Position numbers and translations under genes: made by a program. The notes below the pieces were generated by a model, which made no database searches, was not told the origin of the DNA, and worked only from the letters and a program-made list of their open reading frames with translations. From sequence record PV467748.1: 64,000 bases of DNA; one strand, 5' to 3'. Source of the DNA: a phage. This document shows, piece after piece, positions 6,515-49,654 of the stretch (the first letter of the stretch is position 1; every line of letters begins with the position of its first letter).

Positions 6515-6777
6515 TGTAGGAATCGAGCTCCTTCTAATGCATCATCAAGATTATCAAACTCATCGACGTAATCAATACCGCCAACTTCATCTTTAGCGTA
6601 TAGCCAGTACCGTTTAAATTCATATTCGATAATAAAGTGGGCACCTTCAATCTGGAGAACCCCATCACCATTAAATTGGACTGCATAACCTGTAAAGCGG
6701 ACATCATCCAGGAGTTCTTCTTTCATAGCAATCATTTCCAAGTTTTTATCGTAATTAGAGAGTTTTATTTTAATCAT
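6511..6777 (-). CDS. hypothetical protein (88 aa)
   Basis: Track ORF; stop/start overlaps with neighbours. Confidence 0.45.
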   Translation of the reverse strand: MIKIKLSNYDKNLEMIAMKEELLDDVRFTGYAVQFNGDGVLQIEGAHFIIEYEFKRYWLYAKDEVGGIDYVDEFDNLDDALEGARFLQ

Positions 6778-7103
6778 TTCGCAGCCTTAACAATTTTCAG
6801 GTCAACGAATTTTTTCTTACGTTGGTTTTTCATGCGGCGGATAGTTTTATCCGTAATTTCACCTGGCTGCCAAGCTTTAGATTCAACACCAAAGGCGGCC
6901 ACATCAAACTCGTCGAGAATATATTGAACCAGGATTTCACGAATACCATTCTTACCAATTTTCTGGTCTTTAGAATGCATAATTGGTAACAGTTCAGCAA
7001 CCCATTGGTCGAGAATTTCAGGAGTCACAAAACCTGTATTCATCAGTTCGTTTACTTTATCGAAAGCGAAAGAGTTCAGTACGTTTTTGATTGCTTGTGA
7101 CAT
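6774..7103 (-). CDS. hypothetical protein (109 aa) with MSQAI N-terminus
   Basis: Track ORF 6774..7265 trimmed to the ATG preceded by CTGAGGAAATTATT; the N-terminal extension in the track covers promoter sequence. Confidence 0.5.
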   Translation of the reverse strand: MSQAIKNVLNSFAFDKVNELMNTGFVTPEILDQWVAELLPIMHSKDQKIGKNGIREILVQYILDEFDVAAFGVESKAWQPGEITDKTIRRMKNQRKKKFVDLKIVKAAK

Positions 7104-7175
7104 AATAATTTCCTCAGTTTTAAATTTATAATCCGTAGGACCATTATACTCTGGTCCCAAGAGTTTGTAAACTAT
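7104..7175 (-). promoter_or_regulatory. early-type promoter plus conserved leader (GTTTAC -35, ~18-bp spacer, TATAAT then GGTCCTACGG, SD GAGGAAATTATT)
   Basis: Minus-strand read: TAGTTTACAAACTCTTGGGACCAGAGTATAATGGTCCTACGG...CTGAGGAAATTATTATG; leader shared with the gene starting at 14376. Confidence 0.5.
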
Positions 7176-7372
7176 TTTTGTGCTTTGGCGCCTTTCCAAC
7201 CTTCGTACATCATTGCTGCGGAAATTAACAAAGCACCTGAGCAACTTGAATATTTGTGATTCCAAAACCAGTTCAGAAAAACTTCGTCATCAATACCTTG
7301 GGCTATCATATTTTCAAAGAACTGACGACGAGATTCGGCGATTCGCTGTGATAATTTAGATTCAGGATTCAT
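7172..7372 (-). CDS. hypothetical protein (66 aa)
   Basis: Track ORF 7172..7465 trimmed to the ATG preceded by GCTGAGGAAAAT. Confidence 0.4.
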   Translation of the reverse strand: MNPESKLSQRIAESRRQFFENMIAQGIDDEVFLNWFWNHKYSSCSGALLISAAMMYEGWKGAKAQK

Positions 7373-43207: not shown

Positions 43208-43215
43208 TATAAATA
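43208..43215 (+). promoter_or_regulatory. late promoter TATAAATA for gene 53 and the baseplate operon
   Basis: Exact TATAAATA 27 nt upstream of the gp53 ATG. Confidence 0.7.
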
Positions 43216-43222
43216 TTAATAT

Positions 43223-43230
43223 TATTTATA
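43223..43230 (-). promoter_or_regulatory. late promoter TATAAATA for gene 4
   Basis: Plus tatttata is TATAAATA on the minus strand, about 25 nt upstream of the gp4 ATG. Confidence 0.65.
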
Positions 43231-43242
43231 CTCGGAGGCACT

Positions 43243-43845
43243 ATGCTCTTCTCATTTTTCGACCCTATAAATTACGAATCAAAAACAGTCAAGGCAGATT
43301 CCGGCTCATTAACAAATGCCGATGTATTGAGCGTACCGATGACTGATATATTTAGAAATTATAAAGAATATTTTGATAGAGTGGCTAAAAATTATACACT
43401 AAAAACTTATTATATCAATGGAGCCCCGCGTCCGGAAGAATTAGCCCATCAACTTTATGGTAACGTGCAATTATATTGGGTTTTATTGATGTGTAATAAT
43501 ATATACGACCCTTATTACGGCTGGATTACAGGCCAAGAAGTTGCATATCAAGCAGCTATTCAACGTTATGCTACTGCAGGCGGAAACCAAGTTCTTTATC
43601 ATGTCAATGAAAAAGGTGAGAAATTCTGGAATCTTGTTAATACCCCAGAAAATCCTTATACTTGGTACGATAAAGGCGATACAGAAAAACGTTATCCTCA
43701 ATATGAAGGTCCTTTGGCCGCAGTAGATATTTACGAGGATGCCATTCGTAAAAATGAATATAAGCGCGAAATAAAGATTATAGACCCTAATGACATCGAG
43801 TCCTTTGTTTCCGCTTTAATTAGAGAAATGGAAAAAGCGCTATGA
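43243..43845 (+). CDS. 53: baseplate wedge protein gp53
   Basis: 200-aa track ORF in the gene 53 position, followed by gp5. Confidence 0.75.
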   Translation: MLFSFFDPINYESKTVKADSGSLTNADVLSVPMTDIFRNYKEYFDRVAKNYTLKTYYINGAPRPEELAHQLYGNVQLYWVLLMCNNIYDPYYGWITGQEVAYQAAIQRYATAGGNQVLYHVNEKGEKFWNLVNTPENPYTWYDKGDTEKRYPQYEGPLAAVDIYEDAIRKNEYKREIKIIDPNDIESFVSALIREMEKAL

Positions 43846-45629
43846 TTAACATGTCTGATAATGTCAGTTGGTTCGTCGGTGTAGTTGAAGACCGAATGGA
43901 CCCACTCCAACAAGGCCGAGTACGCGTGCGAGTATGGGGTATGCATCCATATGAAAAAGTGCAAGGTCCAGTAAAAGGCCTTCGTACAGAAGATTTACCA
44001 TGGATGTCTGTATTAATGCCTACATCTTCCGCCTCTGTTTCAGGTATTCAAACCGCTATGACTGGTATGGTTCCTGGTACACAGGTTTATGGGCATTTTC
44101 TTGATAAGTGGAAATTAAACGGACTTGTCCTTGGTACATACGGTTCCGCTTCAAGACAGAAGGCTAATCCTAATGAAGGTTTTAGCGATCCAACAGGTCA
44201 ATATCCGCTTTATTTAGGTAACGATGCCGCTGCACTAAACCGAGGTGGTGAAGTTGGATATGATGCCACTTCCAACGTAATACAAGATGCAAACACCGAT
44301 GTAGGTATTAATCCTGATGGTTTAGATTTGAGCCAGGTTAAGCCTGATGATAATCCTAATTTCACAATAGAAAACATGCTTCACCGTGATGAAGGGCTTC
44401 GACTGAAGGTATATTGGGACACCGAAGGATACCCTACTATAGGTATAGGCCACCTTATCGCCCCACAACCTATTAGAGATATGAATCGAATAAACAAAAT
44501 ATTATCTAATCAGGTAGGACGAGAAGTTAAAGGTAACCCTGGTGCAATATCAATGGATGAGGCTTCTAAATTATTCCAAGAAGACCTTAAAAAAGTCCAA
44601 AACGATATAGGTCGGCATAGTGTTGTAGGTCCTGTTTACAATAAAGAAAACCGTTCAAGACAAATGGCTCTTGAAAACATGGCTTTCCAAATGGGATTAG
44701 GTGGATTGGCTAAATTCCGTGGAATGCTTAGTGCAATGCTAATAGGCGATTATAAAAAGGCATTTGAGGAAGCTCGTAATTCAGTATGGTTTAACCAAAC
44801 TAAAGGTCGCGCATCAAGGGTATCAATGATTATCCTTACAGGTAACATGGAATCATATGGTATTATGGCCCCTAAAGAAAGGTCATTTAATGGTCGTTCG
44901 TATAGAATGATTCAAACATTTGCTGCCCCTACAAATTCGGACCCTGCAGACCCGTGGACTCCAGAAGACACAAGGATTCTTTTTAAAGAACCTGATTCTA
45001 GTTATAAAGGCGAATATCCATATGTCCAAACCATGCAAACTGAAGGTGGGCATATCCAAGAATTCGATAATACCCCAGGGCAAGAACGTTATCGATTAAT
45101 CCATCCTACCGGTAGTTATGAAGAAGTTGCTCCTGATGGTCGTAAAACTTCTAAGACGGTAGCCGATGGTTATTATATGACCCAAGGCGATTCAAATACT
45201 TATGTTGGTGGTAATAATAAAGTCAACGTTGGCGGTGATGAAACCTATTATAATATGGCTAACGTTCGCCGTCAGACTGATGGGTCTGAAAGCATTCATA
45301 TTCGAGGTAATGAAACCAAAACTGTAGAAGGTAATGGAACTCTGCTTGTTAAAGGAAATGTTAAAATAGTTATTATGGGTACTGCTGATATAACTGTTGA
45401 ACAAGAAGCATATATTACGGTTGAAAAGGATACAACAGTTAATGTCAACCAGAATGCAGATATAAGCGTTAAACAAAAGGCCACAATCAATGCTCAAAAT
45501 ATGGATGTAAATGTCGAACAAGATTTAAATTTTGCAGCGACGAACATTAATTTAAACGCATCAAATACTGTGCATATGGATGGTGGTTCATTAGCTAAAG
45601 TATCTGGTGGCAACGTACAGGTCGGTTAA
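43842..45629 (+). CDS. 5: baseplate hub and tail lysozyme gp5 (cell-puncturing device)
   Basis: 595-aa track ORF with internal T4-lysozyme-like domain (MLHRDEGLRLKVYWDTEGYPTIGIGHLI) and C-terminal beta-helix repeats (VNVNQNADISVKQKATINAQNMDVNV). Confidence 0.9.
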   Translation: MINMSDNVSWFVGVVEDRMDPLQQGRVRVRVWGMHPYEKVQGPVKGLRTEDLPWMSVLMPTSSASVSGIQTAMTGMVPGTQVYGHFLDKWKLNGLVLGTYGSASRQKANPNEGFSDPTGQYPLYLGNDAAALNRGGEVGYDATSNVIQDANTDVGINPDGLDLSQVKPDDNPNFTIENMLHRDEGLRLKVYWDTEGYPTIGIGHLIAPQPIRDMNRINKILSNQVGREVKGNPGAISMDEASKLFQEDLKKVQNDIGRHSVVGPVYNKENRSRQMALENMAFQMGLGGLAKFRGMLSAMLIGDYKKAFEEARNSVWFNQTKGRASRVSMIILTGNMESYGIMAPKERSFNGRSYRMIQTFAAPTNSDPADPWTPEDTRILFKEPDSSYKGEYPYVQTMQTEGGHIQEFDNTPGQERYRLIHPTGSYEEVAPDGRKTSKTVADGYYMTQGDSNTYVGGNNKVNVGGDETYYNMANVRRQTDGSESIHIRGNETKTVEGNGTLLVKGNVKIVIMGTADITVEQEAYITVEKDTTVNVNQNADISVKQKATINAQNMDVNVEQDLNFAATNINLNASNTVHMDGGSLAKVSGGNVQVG

Positions 45630-45630
45630 T

Positions 45631-47694
45631 ATGAATTACTACGATAAAGTTGATGAAGTGGTAGGGACTGTAACAAGTCCCTGTGATGACGCAGTAGGAC
45701 CCGGTGAATATCGCCGGGTTAAATGGGAATTATATAACCCAACAGGTGCTTTTATTCAACCCGGGAATGGCGTTGAATGGGATACCGAGATTATTCCACT
45801 AGCTACACATTTATACACACAAAATCCATTTGGTAATAAGTCCGAAACTTTTCCTGCACCTCCCCCGCCGGAAGATGGAACAAGTCAAGGTATCTGGTGT
45901 GCTAAACTCGGAATATTCTTTATTACGCAATTGGATTTAGAAAATTATGTAGAATCGATTGGTGCAACTCTTTTGCCCGGTAATGATTGGTATGGCGCTG
46001 ATTTATCAAAATCTGTATTGTATAAAACATCTATTGAATATGATATGTATCGCATCGAAAACTGTGGCGGTGTATGGACGTCACAAGGCCCCAGAATGGA
46101 CCCCAGGACGATGATTGCAGTTACGGCTGATTATCATATGTATGTCAACTTTAACGGCCTTGGTGACTCCCGCAGGGCTTATTTGAAGTACTATGAGACA
46201 AAACCTTGTACTTATGTTGGACTGGTATTAAATCTAGATGTTGATATGAGTATCCCAGGAACTCCGATTCCAGGACCGGTATCCATCGGGTCTTTACCAC
46301 CAGAAATAACCGGGCGAGCCAGGGCAATAAGCTGTGTTCCTTTTACAGCGGAATTCCCTTACAACGGATTGACCAATGCGATTATGGCTTCATGGAATAC
46401 ATCTAGGAATTCATTCAAATTATATTGGGATATGCTCCCTGGATGGCCATCATCTGGTGGGACCGATTGGGAAAAATTCTTCGATTCTGGGTATAGTAAG
46501 CTATCGGTCGCAATGGAAGAGCTAGGCAACTCAGCTGTTGCTATGTGTCAATATGTTCAGCAAATGGCTTTTCTTGCATTTAAAGATGCCATATCACAGG
46601 TCTTGAATATTGTTGGTGGTGGGTGGGACTTACTTAAAAGCTTTTTACCCTCGATTACTATTATGGGCATGACTATTGACCTGGAAGACCTCTGCACTTC
46701 AGGTGATGGTGTACAGAAATTAAAAGAAGCATGGAAAAACTTTAATTTAGAAGAAACCATCCAATCGATTTATTCTGCCATTGGGTCGGCATACGATTAT
46801 TCGGTTGAACGCGTCAAGATGTATTCGCGTGACCTTATTGATGCAATTACAGACTTGTATGACTGGGCCTGGTCTCAATTGCTTATGGCTGGTGTTGCAT
46901 TATCAAAACTGTGTGTAGACCTCGCTCAAATATGGAGTATGCCTCCTATAGTTCCGAACCCAGTTTGGAGCGTTATTACTGCGGTCAAGGAAATGATGAA
47001 GCAAGTTAAACCACTGGACATGATAATGAGCGGTAACTTTCCAGGATTCACGGCATCAGATGTTTATCAAGTGGTTATGGAAAAGGTAGACCAGAAAATA
47101 GACGAAGCTTATGCAATGATTGAGGCTCTTAAAACCCAGGCACTCAATCTGTGGAATGAGATTAAGCTCAAAAAGCAAGAAGTACAAAAACAAGCTATTG
47201 AATTTAAACAATATCTTTCAGGAATGTACGAAAAAGTTACAGACGAGCTAACTGCTCAGAAGGAAGCCGCATTAGCACAAGCTGAAGCTGCACTTGAACT
47301 TTTAAAGAATAAATATAAACAGATTAAGAACTCTATTACCGAAAGTCAAACCTCCGTTTCTGATGTATTAGATATGGCTTTAGAAGAATTCAAAAAACTT
47401 CCTATTGTGGCTCAAATGGAAGAACTTCTCGGTATGCTCGGAGCTACTGTAGATGATATCATGGTTATATACGAGAACTCAGTAACTAAAGCAAAATCTT
47501 TATATCACGAATTTACTGATGGTTCCAGGTCAATGAAAGACTTGTGCAAATCAATGTATAACCAAATATCAACATTATCCTTAAGTAAGGTGGTACAATG
47601 GATTAATAAGATGCTGGGAATATTCGGTTTAACGATTGCATTTCCATCCCTTTCCATTTGCATACCTTGTTTAGAATCTCCTACTAGGAATTAA
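45631..47694 (+). CDS. large uncharacterised protein (687 aa) in the gene 5.1-5.4 position
   Basis: Track ORF 45607..47694 trimmed to the ATG 2 nt after the gp5 stop; Gly/Pro/Trp-rich N-terminal half, Ala/Lys-rich coiled-coil near residue 520, hydrophobic Cys-containing C-terminus; no PAAR motif seen. Confidence 0.6.
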   Translation: MNYYDKVDEVVGTVTSPCDDAVGPGEYRRVKWELYNPTGAFIQPGNGVEWDTEIIPLATHLYTQNPFGNKSETFPAPPPPEDGTSQGIWCAKLGIFFITQLDLENYVESIGATLLPGNDWYGADLSKSVLYKTSIEYDMYRIENCGGVWTSQGPRMDPRTMIAVTADYHMYVNFNGLGDSRRAYLKYYETKPCTYVGLVLNLDVDMSIPGTPIPGPVSIGSLPPEITGRARAISCVPFTAEFPYNGLTNAIMASWNTSRNSFKLYWDMLPGWPSSGGTDWEKFFDSGYSKLSVAMEELGNSAVAMCQYVQQMAFLAFKDAISQVLNIVGGGWDLLKSFLPSITIMGMTIDLEDLCTSGDGVQKLKEAWKNFNLEETIQSIYSAIGSAYDYSVERVKMYSRDLIDAITDLYDWAWSQLLMAGVALSKLCVDLAQIWSMPPIVPNPVWSVITAVKEMMKQVKPLDMIMSGNFPGFTASDVYQVVMEKVDQKIDEAYAMIEALKTQALNLWNEIKLKKQEVQKQAIEFKQYLSGMYEKVTDELTAQKEAALAQAEAALELLKNKYKQIKNSITESQTSVSDVLDMALEEFKKLPIVAQMEELLGMLGATVDDIMVIYENSVTKAKSLYHEFTDGSRSMKDLCKSMYNQISTLSLSKVVQWINKMLGIFGLTIAFPSLSICIPCLESPTRN

Positions 47695-47695
47695 A

Positions 47696-49654
47696 ATGGC
47701 TACTCCTACGAATTACCAATTAACAAGAACCGTTAACGCTATCCCAAAAGTATTTGTGGGAGCTACGTTTGAAGAGATTAAAAAGAATATTATCGATTGG
47801 CTTTCTAGCCAGGACGAATTTAAGGATTACGATTTCGTTGGTTCGCGAATGAATATCCTGATTGACATGTTAGCTTACAACACCCTGTATATGCAGCAGT
47901 TTGCTAATACCGCGGTATATGAATCTTTCATCGGTACTGCTAACTTGCGTTCCTCCGTCGTCCAGGCTGCACAGGATAACGGCTATTTGCCAAGTTCTAA
48001 ATCAGCAGCCAAAACAAGTATCATGTTGACATGTACTCAAGCCCTGAATGAAAAGAATATTCGTATCCCACGTGGTACTAAATTCCTGGCCTATGCCCGT
48101 GATACTTCAGCGGACCCATATGCTTTTGTTACCACGGAAAACGTTATTGCCGTACGTGATGTTAATAACCAATATCTTCCTATCGTATCTTTAGCACAGG
48201 GCCGTATTATTCGTACCGAACTTAAGTATGACCCTAAAACCCCTATTCTTATTCGTGACCCGGATATCGATAGACAAGAAGTTAAACTTTATGTTGATGG
48301 CGCAGAATGGGCTAACTGGACTAATAAATCCATGGTTCATGCTGGTAGTACATCAACAATTTACTATATGCGTGAAACCGTAGATGGTAATACTGAATTC
48401 TTCTTTGGTGAAGGTGTTGCTGAAAAATCAGTTGCAGGTGGGGTATTAGAAGCTAATTATATTGGTGGTTTAAAACCTGTTAAAGATGCCACCATTGTTA
48501 TAGAATACCTTCGTACAGACGGCGAAGTTGCTAATGGGGCAGTGGACTTTAGTTATGCGGATTCTTTGGCATATATTACGGTTGAAAAAATTACAGAAAA
48601 CTACGATGAAAATCCGGATTATGTAGGTGCTGATGGTGGTGGTGACCCTGAAGATATTGAACGTATTCGTGAATTGGCTGTAGTTAAACGTGAAGCCCAG
48701 ATGCGTGCTGTAACTGGTACAGATTATGATACATTCGTTTCAGAGCGATTTGGTTCTATTGTACAAGCAGTACAAACCTTTACAGACCCAAATAAACCGG
48801 GTTACGCCTTTGTTACCATTAAACCTAAATCAGGATTGTATTTGACGGCAGTACAACGTGAAGATATCCAAAATTATCTTTCAGAATTTAACTTGGCACC
48901 TATTACCCCTTCGGTTATTTCTCCTGACTACTTGTTCTTGAAGCATAAAATTAAGGTTTCATATGCACTGAACAAATTACAGGAATCCGAACAATGGCTA
49001 ACGGCCCAAATCCTTTCCCAAATAGACCGTTATTATATTAACGAAGTTGAAATATTCAACCATGGGTTTGCCAAGTCTAAAATGTTGACTTATATTGATA
49101 ATGCAGACCACAGTATCCTTGGCTCTTCGGCTACGGTAACAATGGTTCGCGAAGTATTAAACTTCTTCAAAACACCTGAAGCAGGTATTAAATACTATAA
49201 TCAATACACCAACCGTTCTGTAACTTCTAGTGAATTTGAGTTCGTCCCAACAAACGTATCGGATGTTGTTAAATCTTACAACGTACGTATTGTTGCCACA
49301 GATAAAGACGAACGAGGCGATGGTAAAATGGTTATAGGTCCTTTCCGACCTGGCGATGTAATTGAAAACCAATACATTCAACCTTATACCGGAGATGACT
49401 TTGATAAAATGGCAGCGCCTGCAGACCAATCAGTCTACTATATTATTGGCGAAATTGATTATTACTCAGATTTTATTTTCTGGGATATCGCCGCAATAGG
49501 CCTTACTTCCGACCGTTTTGAAGTCCAGTCTATTGAACTTTATGCAGGGCCAGACCAAGACAACATCTTTACCAAAGACGGTTCTTTAATCGTATTTGAA
49601 GATGACCTTCGTCCTCAGTACACAACTATAGAGTTGGAACCAATTACAATATAA
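47696..49654 (+). CDS. 6: baseplate wedge protein gp6
   Basis: 652-aa track ORF MATPTNYQLTRTVNAIPKVFVGATFEEIKKN... closely matching recalled T4 gp6. Confidence 0.9.
   Translation: MATPTNYQLTRTVNAIPKVFVGATFEEIKKNIIDWLSSQDEFKDYDFVGSRMNILIDMLAYNTLYMQQFANTAVYESFIGTANLRSSVVQAAQDNGYLPSSKSAAKTSIMLTCTQALNEKNIRIPRGTKFLAYARDTSADPYAFVTTENVIAVRDVNNQYLPIVSLAQGRIIRTELKYDPKTPILIRDPDIDRQEVKLYVDGAEWANWTNKSMVHAGSTSTIYYMRETVDGNTEFFFGEGVAEKSVAGGVLEANYIGGLKPVKDATIVIEYLRTDGEVANGAVDFSYADSLAYITVEKITENYDENPDYVGADGGGDPEDIERIRELAVVKREAQMRAVTGTDYDTFVSERFGSIVQAVQTFTDPNKPGYAFVTIKPKSGLYLTAVQREDIQNYLSEFNLAPITPSVISPDYLFLKHKIKVSYALNKLQESEQWLTAQILSQIDRYYINEVEIFNHGFAKSKMLTYIDNADHSILGSSATVTMVREVLNFFKTPEAGIKYYNQYTNRSVTSSEFEFVPTNVSDVVKSYNVRIVATDKDERGDGKMVIGPFRPGDVIENQYIQPYTGDDFDKMAAPADQSVYYIIGEIDYYSDFIFWDIAAIGLTSDRFEVQSIELYAGPDQDNIFTKDGSLIVFEDDLRPQYTTIELEPITI

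What the first reader, a model, noticed from the sequence alone, without database searches (positions are those of the whole stretch)
45631..47694. Large uncharacterised 687-aa ORF between gp5 and gp6 in the baseplate-hub module
In T4 the interval between gene 5 and gene 6 holds only the small genes 5.1-5.4. Here a single 687-aa ORF starts 2 nt after the gp5 stop and ends 2 nt before the gp6 start, so it is co-transcribed from the late baseplate promoter. I see no PAAR, lysozyme or obvious catalytic motif. Its position and late expression suggest a spike-associated structural protein or a virion-delivered protein.
Basis: partly seen in the sequence, partly recalled or inferred. Interest (0 to 1): 0.7.

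Follow-up and report, generated by a model that had tools for sequence, protein, structure and literature searches.

The report
Non-PAAR spike-tip protein after gp5
The 687-residue gene between gp5 and gp6 is this phage's version of a recently proposed, poorly characterised alternative tip protein for the T4-type cell-puncturing spike, and it travels between phages as one cassette with the end of gp5.

Summary
The ORF is real: 45631-47694, + strand, 687 aa, 76.7 kDa, packed between gp5 and gp6 behind a T4 late-promoter consensus. It is not an orphan. It is a full-length ortholog (43% identity) of RB43 orf205w. A 2025 preprint proposed orf205w as a non-PAAR spike tip from a 17.7 A cryo-EM map, and a 2026 paper modelled it for Klebsiella phage Helios gp203.

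What this analysis adds:
- The gene and the last ~95 residues of gp5 form one exchangeable cassette. It replaces gp5-tip + 5.1 + 5.4(PAAR) in otherwise ~99% identical backbones in two genera: window/WG01 vs QL01, and SG1 vs T4.
- The gp5-tip type and this gene each occur in 216 phage records with identical organism breakdowns. The PAAR type occurs in 1335.
- No T4-type PAAR (gp5.4) or gp5.1 homolog was found in the window or in the rest of the closely related WG01 genome.
- There is no profile homology to PAAR or gp5.1.
- AF2 gives a confident model. The N-domain matches no solved fold.

No direct virion evidence exists for this family. I rate it a new member of a recently proposed kind, of moderate interest.

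The parts
43208..43215 (+). T4-type late promoter consensus TATAAATA upstream of gp53. A second copy on the - strand at 43223-43230 faces gene 4.
   Evidence: This is a consensus match only. There is no further + strand TATAAATA until 60322.
43243..43845 (+). gp53 baseplate wedge subunit
   Evidence: Pfam Phage_gp53, E 2.4e-72
43842..45629 (+). gp5 baseplate hub/tail lysozyme (595 aa): OB domain, lysozyme and C-terminal beta-helix
   Evidence: Pfam Gp5_OB 3.3e-61, Phage_lysozyme, Gp5_C; PHROG 430
45285..45629 (+). gp5 C-terminal beta-helix end (about aa 482-595), which belongs to the exchanged cassette. It ends ...LAKVSGGNVQVG.
   Evidence: Nucleotide identity to QL01 falls from 100% to about 50% between 45221 and 45428 and stays low afterwards. 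The last 95 aa are 32.5% identical to QL01 but 89.5% identical to Salmonella phage SG1. tblastn with this segment finds 216 records.
45631..47694 (+). ORF687 (687 aa, 76.7 kDa, pI 4.7): ortholog of RB43 orf205w, a member of PHROG 5296 and a putative non-PAAR spike tip protein
45631..46245 (+). N-terminal alpha/beta domain (aa 1-205). It is confidently predicted and matches no solved fold.
46246..46500 (+). Pro/Gly-rich connecting region (aa 206-290). Confidence is lower when it is modelled without the helical part.
   Evidence: pLDDT is 49-78 in the isolated model and 58-88 in the full model.
46501..47691 (+). Alpha-helical body (aa 291-687). The core helices are 294-328, 398-435 and 631-664. 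Each is followed by a highly conserved extended segment: FLPSITI-G, SMPPxVPNPxW and FPxxSICVP.
   Evidence: AF2 secondary structure and block conservation of 0.79-0.83 at aa 321-340, 461-480 and 641-660. The same three helices form the 'triple coiled-coil core' in the AF3 model of Helios gp203 (PMC13611949).
47053..47355 (+). Long antiparallel helical hairpin (aa 475-575). This is the least conserved part of the protein. It is the source of spurious 'tape measure' and 'SbcC' annotations.
47617..47676 (+). Conserved hydrophobic C-terminal segment GIFGLTIAFPSLSICIPCL, predicted as a beta-strand at aa 673-682
   Evidence: The Kyte-Doolittle 19-mer score is 1.87 here, with a family median of 1.87, and it is >=1.6 in 39 of 51 members. 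DSSP strand.
47684..47698 (+). Right-hand cassette junction. The sequence TAGGAATTAAAATG is shared with QL01. It contains the ORF687 stop, the gp6 Shine-Dalgarno sequence and the gp6 ATG.
   Evidence: Identity to QL01 is 100% from this point on.
47696..49654 (+). gp6 baseplate wedge subunit
   Evidence: Five gp6 Pfam domains, E 1e-37 to 1e-47; 99.7% aa identity to QL01 gp6.

Best explanation
ORF687 is the Dhakavirus member of the RB43 orf205w family. It is a late-expressed protein of about 77 kDa. Most likely a single copy caps the blunt C-terminal end of the trimeric gp5 beta-helix, in place of the 10-kDa PAAR protein gp5.4 (and gp5.1) of T4. It is not a PAAR protein. It combines a novel-fold N-terminal alpha/beta domain with a helical body. 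That body contains three long core helices, each followed by a conserved hydrophobic extended segment. These probably offer a pseudo-threefold surface to the three terminal strands of gp5, which here end in the family-specific motif ...K(V/I)(S/T)GGxVQVG, about one strand longer than in T4. On tail contraction the protein would be the first part of the virion to meet the outer membrane, and it would enter the periplasm with the spike. Shown here: gene order, cassette co-inheritance with the gp5 tip, mutual exclusivity with PAAR, lack of homology to PAAR and gp5.1, and a confident fold prediction. Taken from the literature: extra tip density in RB43. Inferred: stoichiometry, the interface, presence in this phage's virion, and what the extra mass does.
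For: Orthology: 43% identity over 687/690 aa to RB43 orf205w, E=0, and PHROG 5296 full length, E=0. Synteny: the gene starts -1 to +16 nt from the gp5 stop in 19 of 19 loci that hold upstream sequence. These include a 31%-identical relative and one that follows a 389-aa, lysozyme-less gp5. Replacement: sister Dhakavirus QL01 has gp5.1 + gp5.4(PAAR) in the same slot. Mosaicism: the gp5 N-part is 99.6% identical between the window and QL01 and 98.9% between SG1 and T4. The gp5 last 95 aa are 32.5% (window-QL01) and 36.2% (SG1-T4) identical, but 89.5% between the window and SG1. gp6 is 99.7% identical between the window and QL01. The breakpoints lie at gp5 codons ~480-520 in both genera. Co-occurrence: tblastn with the gp5 tip segment and with ORF687 each give 216 records with identical organism breakdowns, against 1335 records with gp5.4. 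No gp5.4 or gp5.1 homolog was found in the window or in the remaining WG01 genome at E<=10. Structure: AF2 pLDDT 86.3, pTM 0.77. Literature: a 17.7 A RB43 baseplate map shows a larger tip than T4, and the orf205w model fits it (PMC12407873). An AF3 model of the Helios gp202 trimer with gp203 shows a gp5.4-like hydrophobic contact (PMC13611949).
Against: There is no direct evidence that any family member is in a virion. The RB43 map is at 17.7 A with C6 symmetry imposed, and attempts to make the recombinant complex failed (PMC12407873). The only virion proteome I found for a likely carrier, Morganella phage MP1, detected neither gp5 nor any product between gp2 and gp6, so it is uninformative. 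I could not model the complex, so the interface is inferred from conservation and secondary structure only. An internal threefold repeat is not detectable by sequence (hhalign probability 0.4-35%). Co-inheritance with the gp5 tip would also fit a dedicated folding or assembly factor for that tip. The PAAR-absence test covers the window plus WG01, a 97.7%-identical relative, not this phage's own full genome.
Confidence: 0.7

Rival explanations
1. The protein is a tip carrying a payload. It sits on the spike, but its main role is membrane activity after delivery. The helical body would be a metastable bundle with hydrophobic core helices shielded by amphipathic ones. In the periplasm it would refold and insert into a membrane to help build the DNA conduit or disturb the envelope.
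For: Two hydrophobic core segments are conserved: aa 416-435 (KD 1.5) and aa 658-683 (KD 1.87), the latter >=1.6 in 39 of 51 members. The protein is about 67 kDa larger than a PAAR cap needs to be. The structural neighbours are long-hairpin proteins that include the pore-former YaxB and the translocator IpaB. The best, non-significant, PDB sequence hit is Hbl-B. By established knowledge of T4, the spike is released into the periplasm.
Against: All structural and sequence matches are generic helical hairpins, with rmsd of 2-25 A and E values above threshold. The long hairpin is highly charged and the least conserved region. The hydrophobic C-terminal segment carries conserved prolines and sometimes a glutamate, and it is predicted as a strand, which fits a buried interface better than a transmembrane helix. 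No experiment supports this reading.
Confidence: 0.13
2. The protein is a non-virion assembly factor. It would be a dedicated chaperone or capping factor that folds or protects the variant gp5 beta-helix end during baseplate assembly and is then discarded.
For: Strict co-inheritance with the gp5 C-terminus would be expected for a cognate chaperone too. T4-like phages use many dedicated assembly chaperones (established knowledge: gp51, gp57A, gp38). There are no virion MS data for the family.
Against: The RB43 map shows extra mass at the tip in mature particles (PMC12407873). These genomes would otherwise have no tip protein at all, because no PAAR was found and gp5 has no HxH apex motif at its C-terminus (sequence). 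77 kDa is very large for a chaperone of a ~100-residue segment.
Confidence: 0.08
3. The protein is an enzymatic effector. The conserved N-terminal domain would be an enzyme acting on LPS, peptidoglycan or lipids at the point of penetration.
For: The N-domain has invariant acidic and basic residues (D124, E136, E143, K92, K127) and the motif NDWYGADLSK. T6SS tips often carry enzymatic cargo (established knowledge).
Confidence: 0.06
4. The protein is a tape-measure-like or SbcC-like protein, as some GenBank records annotate its homologs.
For: There are weak PHROG hits to tape-measure families (E 8e-4 and 5e-3). The exhaustive profile search gives tail hits to PhageMin_Tail proteins (E 4.5e-6 and 1.7e-4). 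Some records carry such names.
Against: The matches cover only the charged helical hairpin (aa ~475-640) and co-occur with apolipoprotein and other coiled-coil noise. The related WG01 genome already has the T4-type tape measure gp29 (WG01 ORF195). The N-domain and core are unrelated to tape-measure proteins.
Confidence: 0.02

Closest known systems
RB43 orf205w (YP_239181) and Klebsiella phage Helios gp203: putative large spike tip protein of Pseudotevenvirus and Slopekvirus (PMC12407873; PMC13611949)
   Same: They are full-length orthologs: 43% identity, the same length, and the same slot directly after gp5. The partner gp5 has the same extended ...GGxVQVG end. PAAR is absent. The predicted architecture is the same: an alpha/beta N-domain and a helical body with a three-helix core.
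   Different: This copy sits in a Tevenvirinae (Dhakavirus) backbone whose closest relatives use PAAR, so here it is a swapped-in cassette rather than a lineage-wide trait. It belongs to a subgroup with SG1, KM16 and Proteus phages (59-73% identity). With a 51-sequence alignment AF2 gives a confident model, whereas the preprint reported low confidence.
T4 gp5.4, the PAAR-repeat spike tip (PF05488; PDB 4KU0 as cited in PMC12407873)
   Same: Same genomic slot. Same proposed role: a single copy capping the blunt end of the gp5 beta-helix. The two are mutually exclusive in genomes.
   Different: There is no homology (hhalign probability 0.05%) and no Pfam PAAR hit in 51 members. It is 687 aa against 97 aa. 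It is mostly helical rather than a beta-hairpin cone. There is no His3Cys metal site: the protein has only three histidines and none is conserved.
Phage P1 UpfB alpha-helical tripod on the PAAR protein UpfC (as described in PMC13611949)
   Same: Both are alpha-helical extensions with a distal loop at the very tip of a gp5-like spike.
   Different: P1 keeps a PAAR and adds three copies of a separate helical protein, whereas here one chain is proposed to do both jobs. No sequence or fold match to anything in the PDB, including the P1 baseplate entry, was found. I did not compare it with UpfB directly.
T6SS PAAR proteins with C-terminal extensions, such as Rhs-PAAR effectors (established knowledge; PMC8651086)
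   Same: Both are large cargo carried on the tip of a contractile-injection spike, and both are exchanged as spike-tip modules.
   Different: Those attach through a true PAAR domain. No member of this family was found outside T4-like phages among 1.84 billion cluster representatives.
P2 gpV apex domain (HxH iron site) (PMC12407873)
   Same: It is an alternative, non-PAAR way to finish a spike.
   Different: The apex is part of the spike chain itself and is trimeric. The window's gp5 has no HxH near its C-terminus.

Membership tests
RB43 orf205w-type spike tip protein (PHROG 5296) | Full-length sequence homology to orf205w | tested here: met
   BLASTP gives 43% identity over aa 1-682, E=0. PHROG 5296 matches aa 1-682 of 685 profile positions, E=0.
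RB43 orf205w-type spike tip protein (PHROG 5296) | Gene lies immediately downstream of gene 5 in the baseplate late operon | tested here: met
   There is a 1-nt gap here and -1 to +16 nt in 19 of 19 other loci.
RB43 orf205w-type spike tip protein (PHROG 5296) | Partner gp5 has the divergent, roughly one-strand-longer beta-helix end instead of the T4 ...GSRIDIG end | tested here: met
   The window's gp5 ends ...VSGGNVQVG and is 15 aa longer than QL01's gp5. RB43, KP15, POP12, phiP4-3 and SG1 all share the motif. This tip type is found in 216 records with the same organism breakdown as the gene.
RB43 orf205w-type spike tip protein (PHROG 5296) | Genome lacks a gp5.4 PAAR ortholog | tested here: met
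   tblastn of QL01 gp5.4 against the window plus the rest of the WG01 genome gives no hit at E<=10. No PAAR product is annotated in WG01. Caveats: WG01 stands in for the unseen part of this phage's genome, and a very divergent PAAR cannot be excluded by tblastn alone.
RB43 orf205w-type spike tip protein (PHROG 5296) | Protein is located at the tip of the gp5 spike in the virion | not testable with these tools
   Only a 17.7 A RB43 map (PMC12407873) and AF3 models (PMC13611949) exist. No complex prediction tool was available here.
PAAR-repeat proteins (PF05488) | Profile match to PAAR repeats | tested here: not met
   There is no PF05488 hit in ORF687 or in any of 51 homologs at E<=0.01. hhalign of the family against a 29-sequence gp5.4 alignment gives probability 0.05%.
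PAAR-repeat proteins (PF05488) | Conserved His/Cys metal site at the cone apex | tested here: not met
   There are only three histidines (H60, H169, H626), none invariant or nearly invariant. The conserved cysteines are C18, C193, C235 and C677. Whether these cluster in space could not be checked, because no model coordinates were returned.
PAAR-repeat proteins (PF05488) | Small beta-hairpin cone fold | tested here: not met
T4 gp5.1 family (PF26906) | Profile homology | tested here: not met
   hhalign against a 30-sequence gp5.1 alignment gives probability 0.2%.
Tail tape measure proteins | Tape-measure signature domain, and being the genome's only tape-measure candidate | tested here: not met
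   No PhageMin_Tail or Tape_meas hit. Only sub-threshold coiled-coil matches over aa ~475-640. gp29 is present in WG01.

The most novel reading that the evidence does not exclude
The protein is more than a sharpening cap. It would be a phage-specific, spike-delivered device of new fold. Its N-domain would recognise an envelope component such as LPS core or a periplasmic or inner-membrane target. Its metastable helical bundle would refold into a membrane to start the DNA conduit. On this reading the gp5-tip + tip-gene cassette is a swappable 'penetration module' that sets which envelopes a T4-like phage can breach, independently of the tail fibres.
Probability: 0.15. Interest if true: 0.75.

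Novelty: new member of a known kind. Interest (0 to 1): 0.4.

Why it matters
How contractile-tail phages finish and use the tip of the puncturing spike is only now being worked out. T4 gp5.4 was shown in 2025 to matter for fitness and for infecting LPS-core mutants. About one in seven T4-like records in the phage collection (216 against 1335) use this unrelated protein, which is seven times larger, and its structure and role are unverified.

The useful result here is that nature has already made near-isogenic pairs that differ essentially only in the cassette: WG01-type vs QL01 in Dhakavirus, and SG1 vs T4 in Tequatrovirus. Both sets infect E. coli or Salmonella and are tractable in the laboratory. 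This turns the question 'what does the alternative tip do?' into a clean comparative or swap experiment. The cassette boundaries also define the minimal gp5 segment, roughly the last 95-115 residues, that must travel with the tip protein. That is practical guidance for making the recombinant complex that failed with the T4 gp5 fragment.

Tried and rejected
- Fusion or descendant of gp5.1: rejected by hhalign (0.2%).
- Tape measure or SbcC, as in some GenBank annotations: rejected as coiled-coil noise confined to the aa 475-640 hairpin.
- Relatives outside T4-like phages, such as T6SS or other contractile systems: none in 1.84 billion representatives. Only 8 full-length clusters plus fragments were found.
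- Internal threefold sequence repeat matching the trimeric gp5: not supported.
- Transmembrane anchor at the C-terminus: the hydrophobicity is conserved, but the prolines, occasional charges and strand prediction argue for a buried interface. This remains unresolved.
- Foreign base composition of the cassette: none. GC is 40.3% against 39.3% for the window.
- Virion proteomics for any carrier phage: four literature searches found none that is informative. The Morganella MP1 proteome missed gp5 as well.
- Model coordinates are not exposed by the tools, so I could not check cysteine clustering, helix polarity or overall shape.
Full report
OBSERVATION. The ORF is as described. An ATG at 45631 follows the gp5 stop (TAA, 45627-45629) after one base. 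The frame runs 687 codons to a TAA at 47692-47694, and the gp6 ATG is at 47696. The neighbours are gp53, gp5 (OB domain, lysozyme, beta-helix repeats), gp6, gp7, gp8, gp9 and gp10 by Pfam. A T4 late-promoter consensus (TATAAATA) lies at 43208-43215, upstream of gp53, and none follows on the + strand until 60322. Late co-transcription is therefore plausible, but it rests on a consensus match. The window is a Dhakavirus (Tevenvirinae), 97.7% identical at the nucleotide level to Escherichia phage WG01 over this region.

NOT AN ORPHAN. The protein matches PHROG 5296 end to end (E=0, function unknown). tblastn finds full-length homologs in 216 phage records: Klebsiella 113, Escherichia 27, Enterobacter 20, Cronobacter 18, Citrobacter 13, Proteus 7 and others. 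Nearly all are annotated 'hypothetical'. In 5.8 billion clustered proteins there are 62 clusters, all about 670-700 aa and 42-99% identical, plus one at 31%. An exhaustive profile search of 1.84 billion representatives finds only eight full-length clusters plus fragments. Below those come only helical, tape-measure-like noise. The family is thus confined to T4-like phages.

ALREADY IN THE LITERATURE. The protein is a full-length ortholog of RB43 orf205w: 43% identity, E=0. A 2025 bioRxiv preprint (PMC12407873, 'The spike tip protein of bacteriophage T4') makes four relevant points. RB43, RB16 and Lw1 lack gene 5.4. The 5.1-5.4 locus is occupied by orf205w, about 690 aa, with residues 1-220 mixed alpha/beta and the rest helical. 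Attempts to produce the complex with the T4 gp5 fragment failed. A 17.7 A baseplate reconstruction shows a larger tip than in T4, into which a low-confidence AlphaFold model fits. A 2026 Viruses paper (PMC13611949) identifies Helios gp203 as the same protein. It presents an AF3 model of the gp5 trimer with one copy, notes a triple coiled-coil core and a loop at the distal end, and proposes that it is an analogue of gp5.1 + gp5.4.

WHAT THE SEQUENCES ADD.

(a) Replacement. Sister Dhakavirus QL01 carries gp5.1 (165 aa) and gp5.4 (PAAR, 97 aa) in exactly this slot.

(b) The swap includes the end of gp5. Window and QL01 gp5 are 94% identical over 543 aa by BLASTP, with the mismatches concentrated after residue ~480, and the two C-termini do not align. 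At the nucleotide level, identity decays between 45221 and 45428 and stays low afterwards. It returns to 100% at a sharp right-hand junction (TAGGAATTAAAATG) 11 nt before the gp6 ATG.

(c) The same thing has happened in T4's own genus.
- gp5 N-part: Salmonella phage SG1 (Tequatrovirus) is 98.9% identical to T4, and the window is 99.6% identical to QL01.
- gp5 last 95 residues: SG1 is 36% identical to T4 but 89.5% identical to the window.
- Tip protein: SG1 is 73% identical to ORF687.
- gp6: the window is 99.7% identical to QL01.
- Breakpoints: they fall at gp5 codons ~480-520 in both genera, inside the repetitive beta-helix.

(d) Co-occurrence. tblastn with the last 96 residues of the window's gp5 returns 216 records with exactly the same organism breakdown as ORF687. 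The PAAR gp5.4 returns 1335 records.

(e) Synteny. In 19 of 19 loci that hold upstream sequence, the gene starts -1 to +16 nt from the gp5 stop, and gp5 ends in L(T/S/A)K(I/V)(T/S)G(G/A/S)x(V/L)Q(V/I)G or FTGGTV(S/V)VG. This includes a relative that follows a 389-aa gp5 with an OB domain and no lysozyme hit on record. In a twentieth locus, only a gp5 fragment survives upstream, and a gp25-like gene sits between the tip gene and gp6.

(f) No spare PAAR. QL01 gp5.4 and gp5.1 find nothing at E<=10 in the window or in the rest of the WG01 genome, and WG01's annotation lists no PAAR product.

Taken together, 'gp5 beta-helix end + tip gene' behaves as one exchangeable module. This is what is expected if the two products form a specific contact.

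WHAT THE PROTEIN LOOKS LIKE. With a 51-sequence alignment, AF2 gives mean pLDDT 86.3 and pTM 0.77. The model contains:
- an alpha/beta N-domain, aa 1-205, with pLDDT about 95 when folded alone;
- a Pro/Gly-rich connector;
- a helical body with core helices 294-328, 398-435 and 631-664;
- a long antiparallel hairpin, helices 475-529 and 538-575;
- a C-terminal strand, aa 673-682.

Conservation is highest just after or at the ends of the three core helices: 0.79-0.83 at aa 321-340, 461-480 and 641-660. It is lowest in the charged hairpin, at 0.37-0.46. The hydrophobic C-terminal segment is conserved in character across the family. I infer that the three core helices and the conserved extended segments that follow them form the pseudo-threefold face that docks on gp5. 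This agrees with the published Helios AF3 model. I could not test it, because no complex prediction tool was available and no coordinates were returned. An internal sequence triplication is not detectable.

WHAT IT IS NOT.
- Not PAAR. There is no Pfam hit in any of 51 members, hhalign probability is 0.05%, there are no conserved histidines, and there is no fold match.
- Not gp5.1. hhalign probability is 0.2%.
- Not a tape measure or SbcC, despite some GenBank labels. The hits are limited to the hairpin and are mixed with apolipoprotein-type noise, and gp29 exists in WG01.

These fold statements rest on predicted models.

MECHANISM AND RIVALS. The best-supported reading (confidence about 0.7) is that one copy caps the gp5 trimer in place of PAAR, is the leading point at penetration, and enters the periplasm with the spike. 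The rivals are these:
- The helical body is additionally a membrane-active payload (0.13). The evidence is limited to conserved hydrophobic core segments and generic structural neighbours.
- It is a discarded assembly factor for the variant gp5 end (0.08). This is disfavoured by the RB43 tip density and by the absence of any other tip.
- The N-domain is an enzyme (0.06). No supporting match was found.
- It is a tape measure (0.02).

Direct virion evidence is missing. The one proteome I found for a likely carrier, Morganella MP1, detected neither gp5 nor any product between gp2 and gp6, so it says nothing either way.

VERDICT. The protein is a new member of a recently proposed kind, the RB43 orf205w-type non-PAAR spike tip, and is not a discovery in itself. 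Identical proteins are already in GenBank (WG01, Bp7, SP18 and others) as 'hypothetical'. Some interest remains. The family is structurally new and experimentally unverified. The natural cassette swaps documented here in Dhakavirus and Tequatrovirus provide near-isogenic pairs and define the gp5 segment that must accompany the tip protein. That makes the function directly testable.

Noticed in passing
window 43208-43230: Two T4 late-promoter consensus sequences (TATAAATA) face away from each other in the 45-nt gap between gene 4 (- strand) and gene 53 (+ strand). They overlap a short palindromic stretch (TATAAATATTAATATTATTTATA).
   Followed up: partly
GenBank records listed (e.g. PP889464.1, PQ657830.1, PP889466.1, MZ612130.1): Homologs of this protein are variously annotated 'tail length tape measure protein', 'SbcC-like subunit of palindrome specific endonuclease' or 'baseplate hub structural protein'. 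These labels appear to come from coiled-coil hits to the aa 475-640 hairpin and are probably wrong.
   Followed up: yes
L021 (RB16) 6567-7283: RB16 has about 0.7 kb between the tip gene's stop and gp6, where other phages have 1-30 nt. I did not examine what the insert encodes.
   Followed up: no
L008 219-1388 (JGI metagenome contig Ga0620835_007198): A gp5 homolog of only 389 aa, with an OB-domain hit and no lysozyme family on record, directly precedes a 743-aa member of the tip family. The family may therefore also partner lysozyme-less spikes.
   Followed up: partly
L007 2542-2967 (ENA metagenome scaffold_330): In the most divergent full-length relative (31% identity, 764 aa), a gp25-like gene (PF04965) sits between the tip gene and gp6. 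This gene order differs from that of T4-like coliphages.
   Followed up: no
L002 1-425 (QL01) vs L001 1-342 (WG01); L013 5197-5619 (T4 segC): Homing endonuclease genes lie next to the variable region. QL01 has one beside gene 2, where WG01 has gene 3. T4 carries segC inside the 5.1-5.4 interval. They could promote the local gene conversion that moves the cassette.
   Followed up: no
window 45192-45521 (- strand): A 109-codon TTG-initiated antisense ORF lies inside the 3' part of gene 5 and spans the left cassette boundary. T4 has the small antisense genes repEA and repEB and oriE inside gene 5. I did not test whether this ORF is more than chance.
   Followed up: no
window vs SG1 (L009): Within the shared cassette, the gp5 end is much better conserved than the tip protein: 89.5% against 73% identity between the window and SG1. 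The most variable part of the tip protein is the distal helical hairpin. This could reflect relaxed constraint or host-driven diversification.
   Followed up: partly
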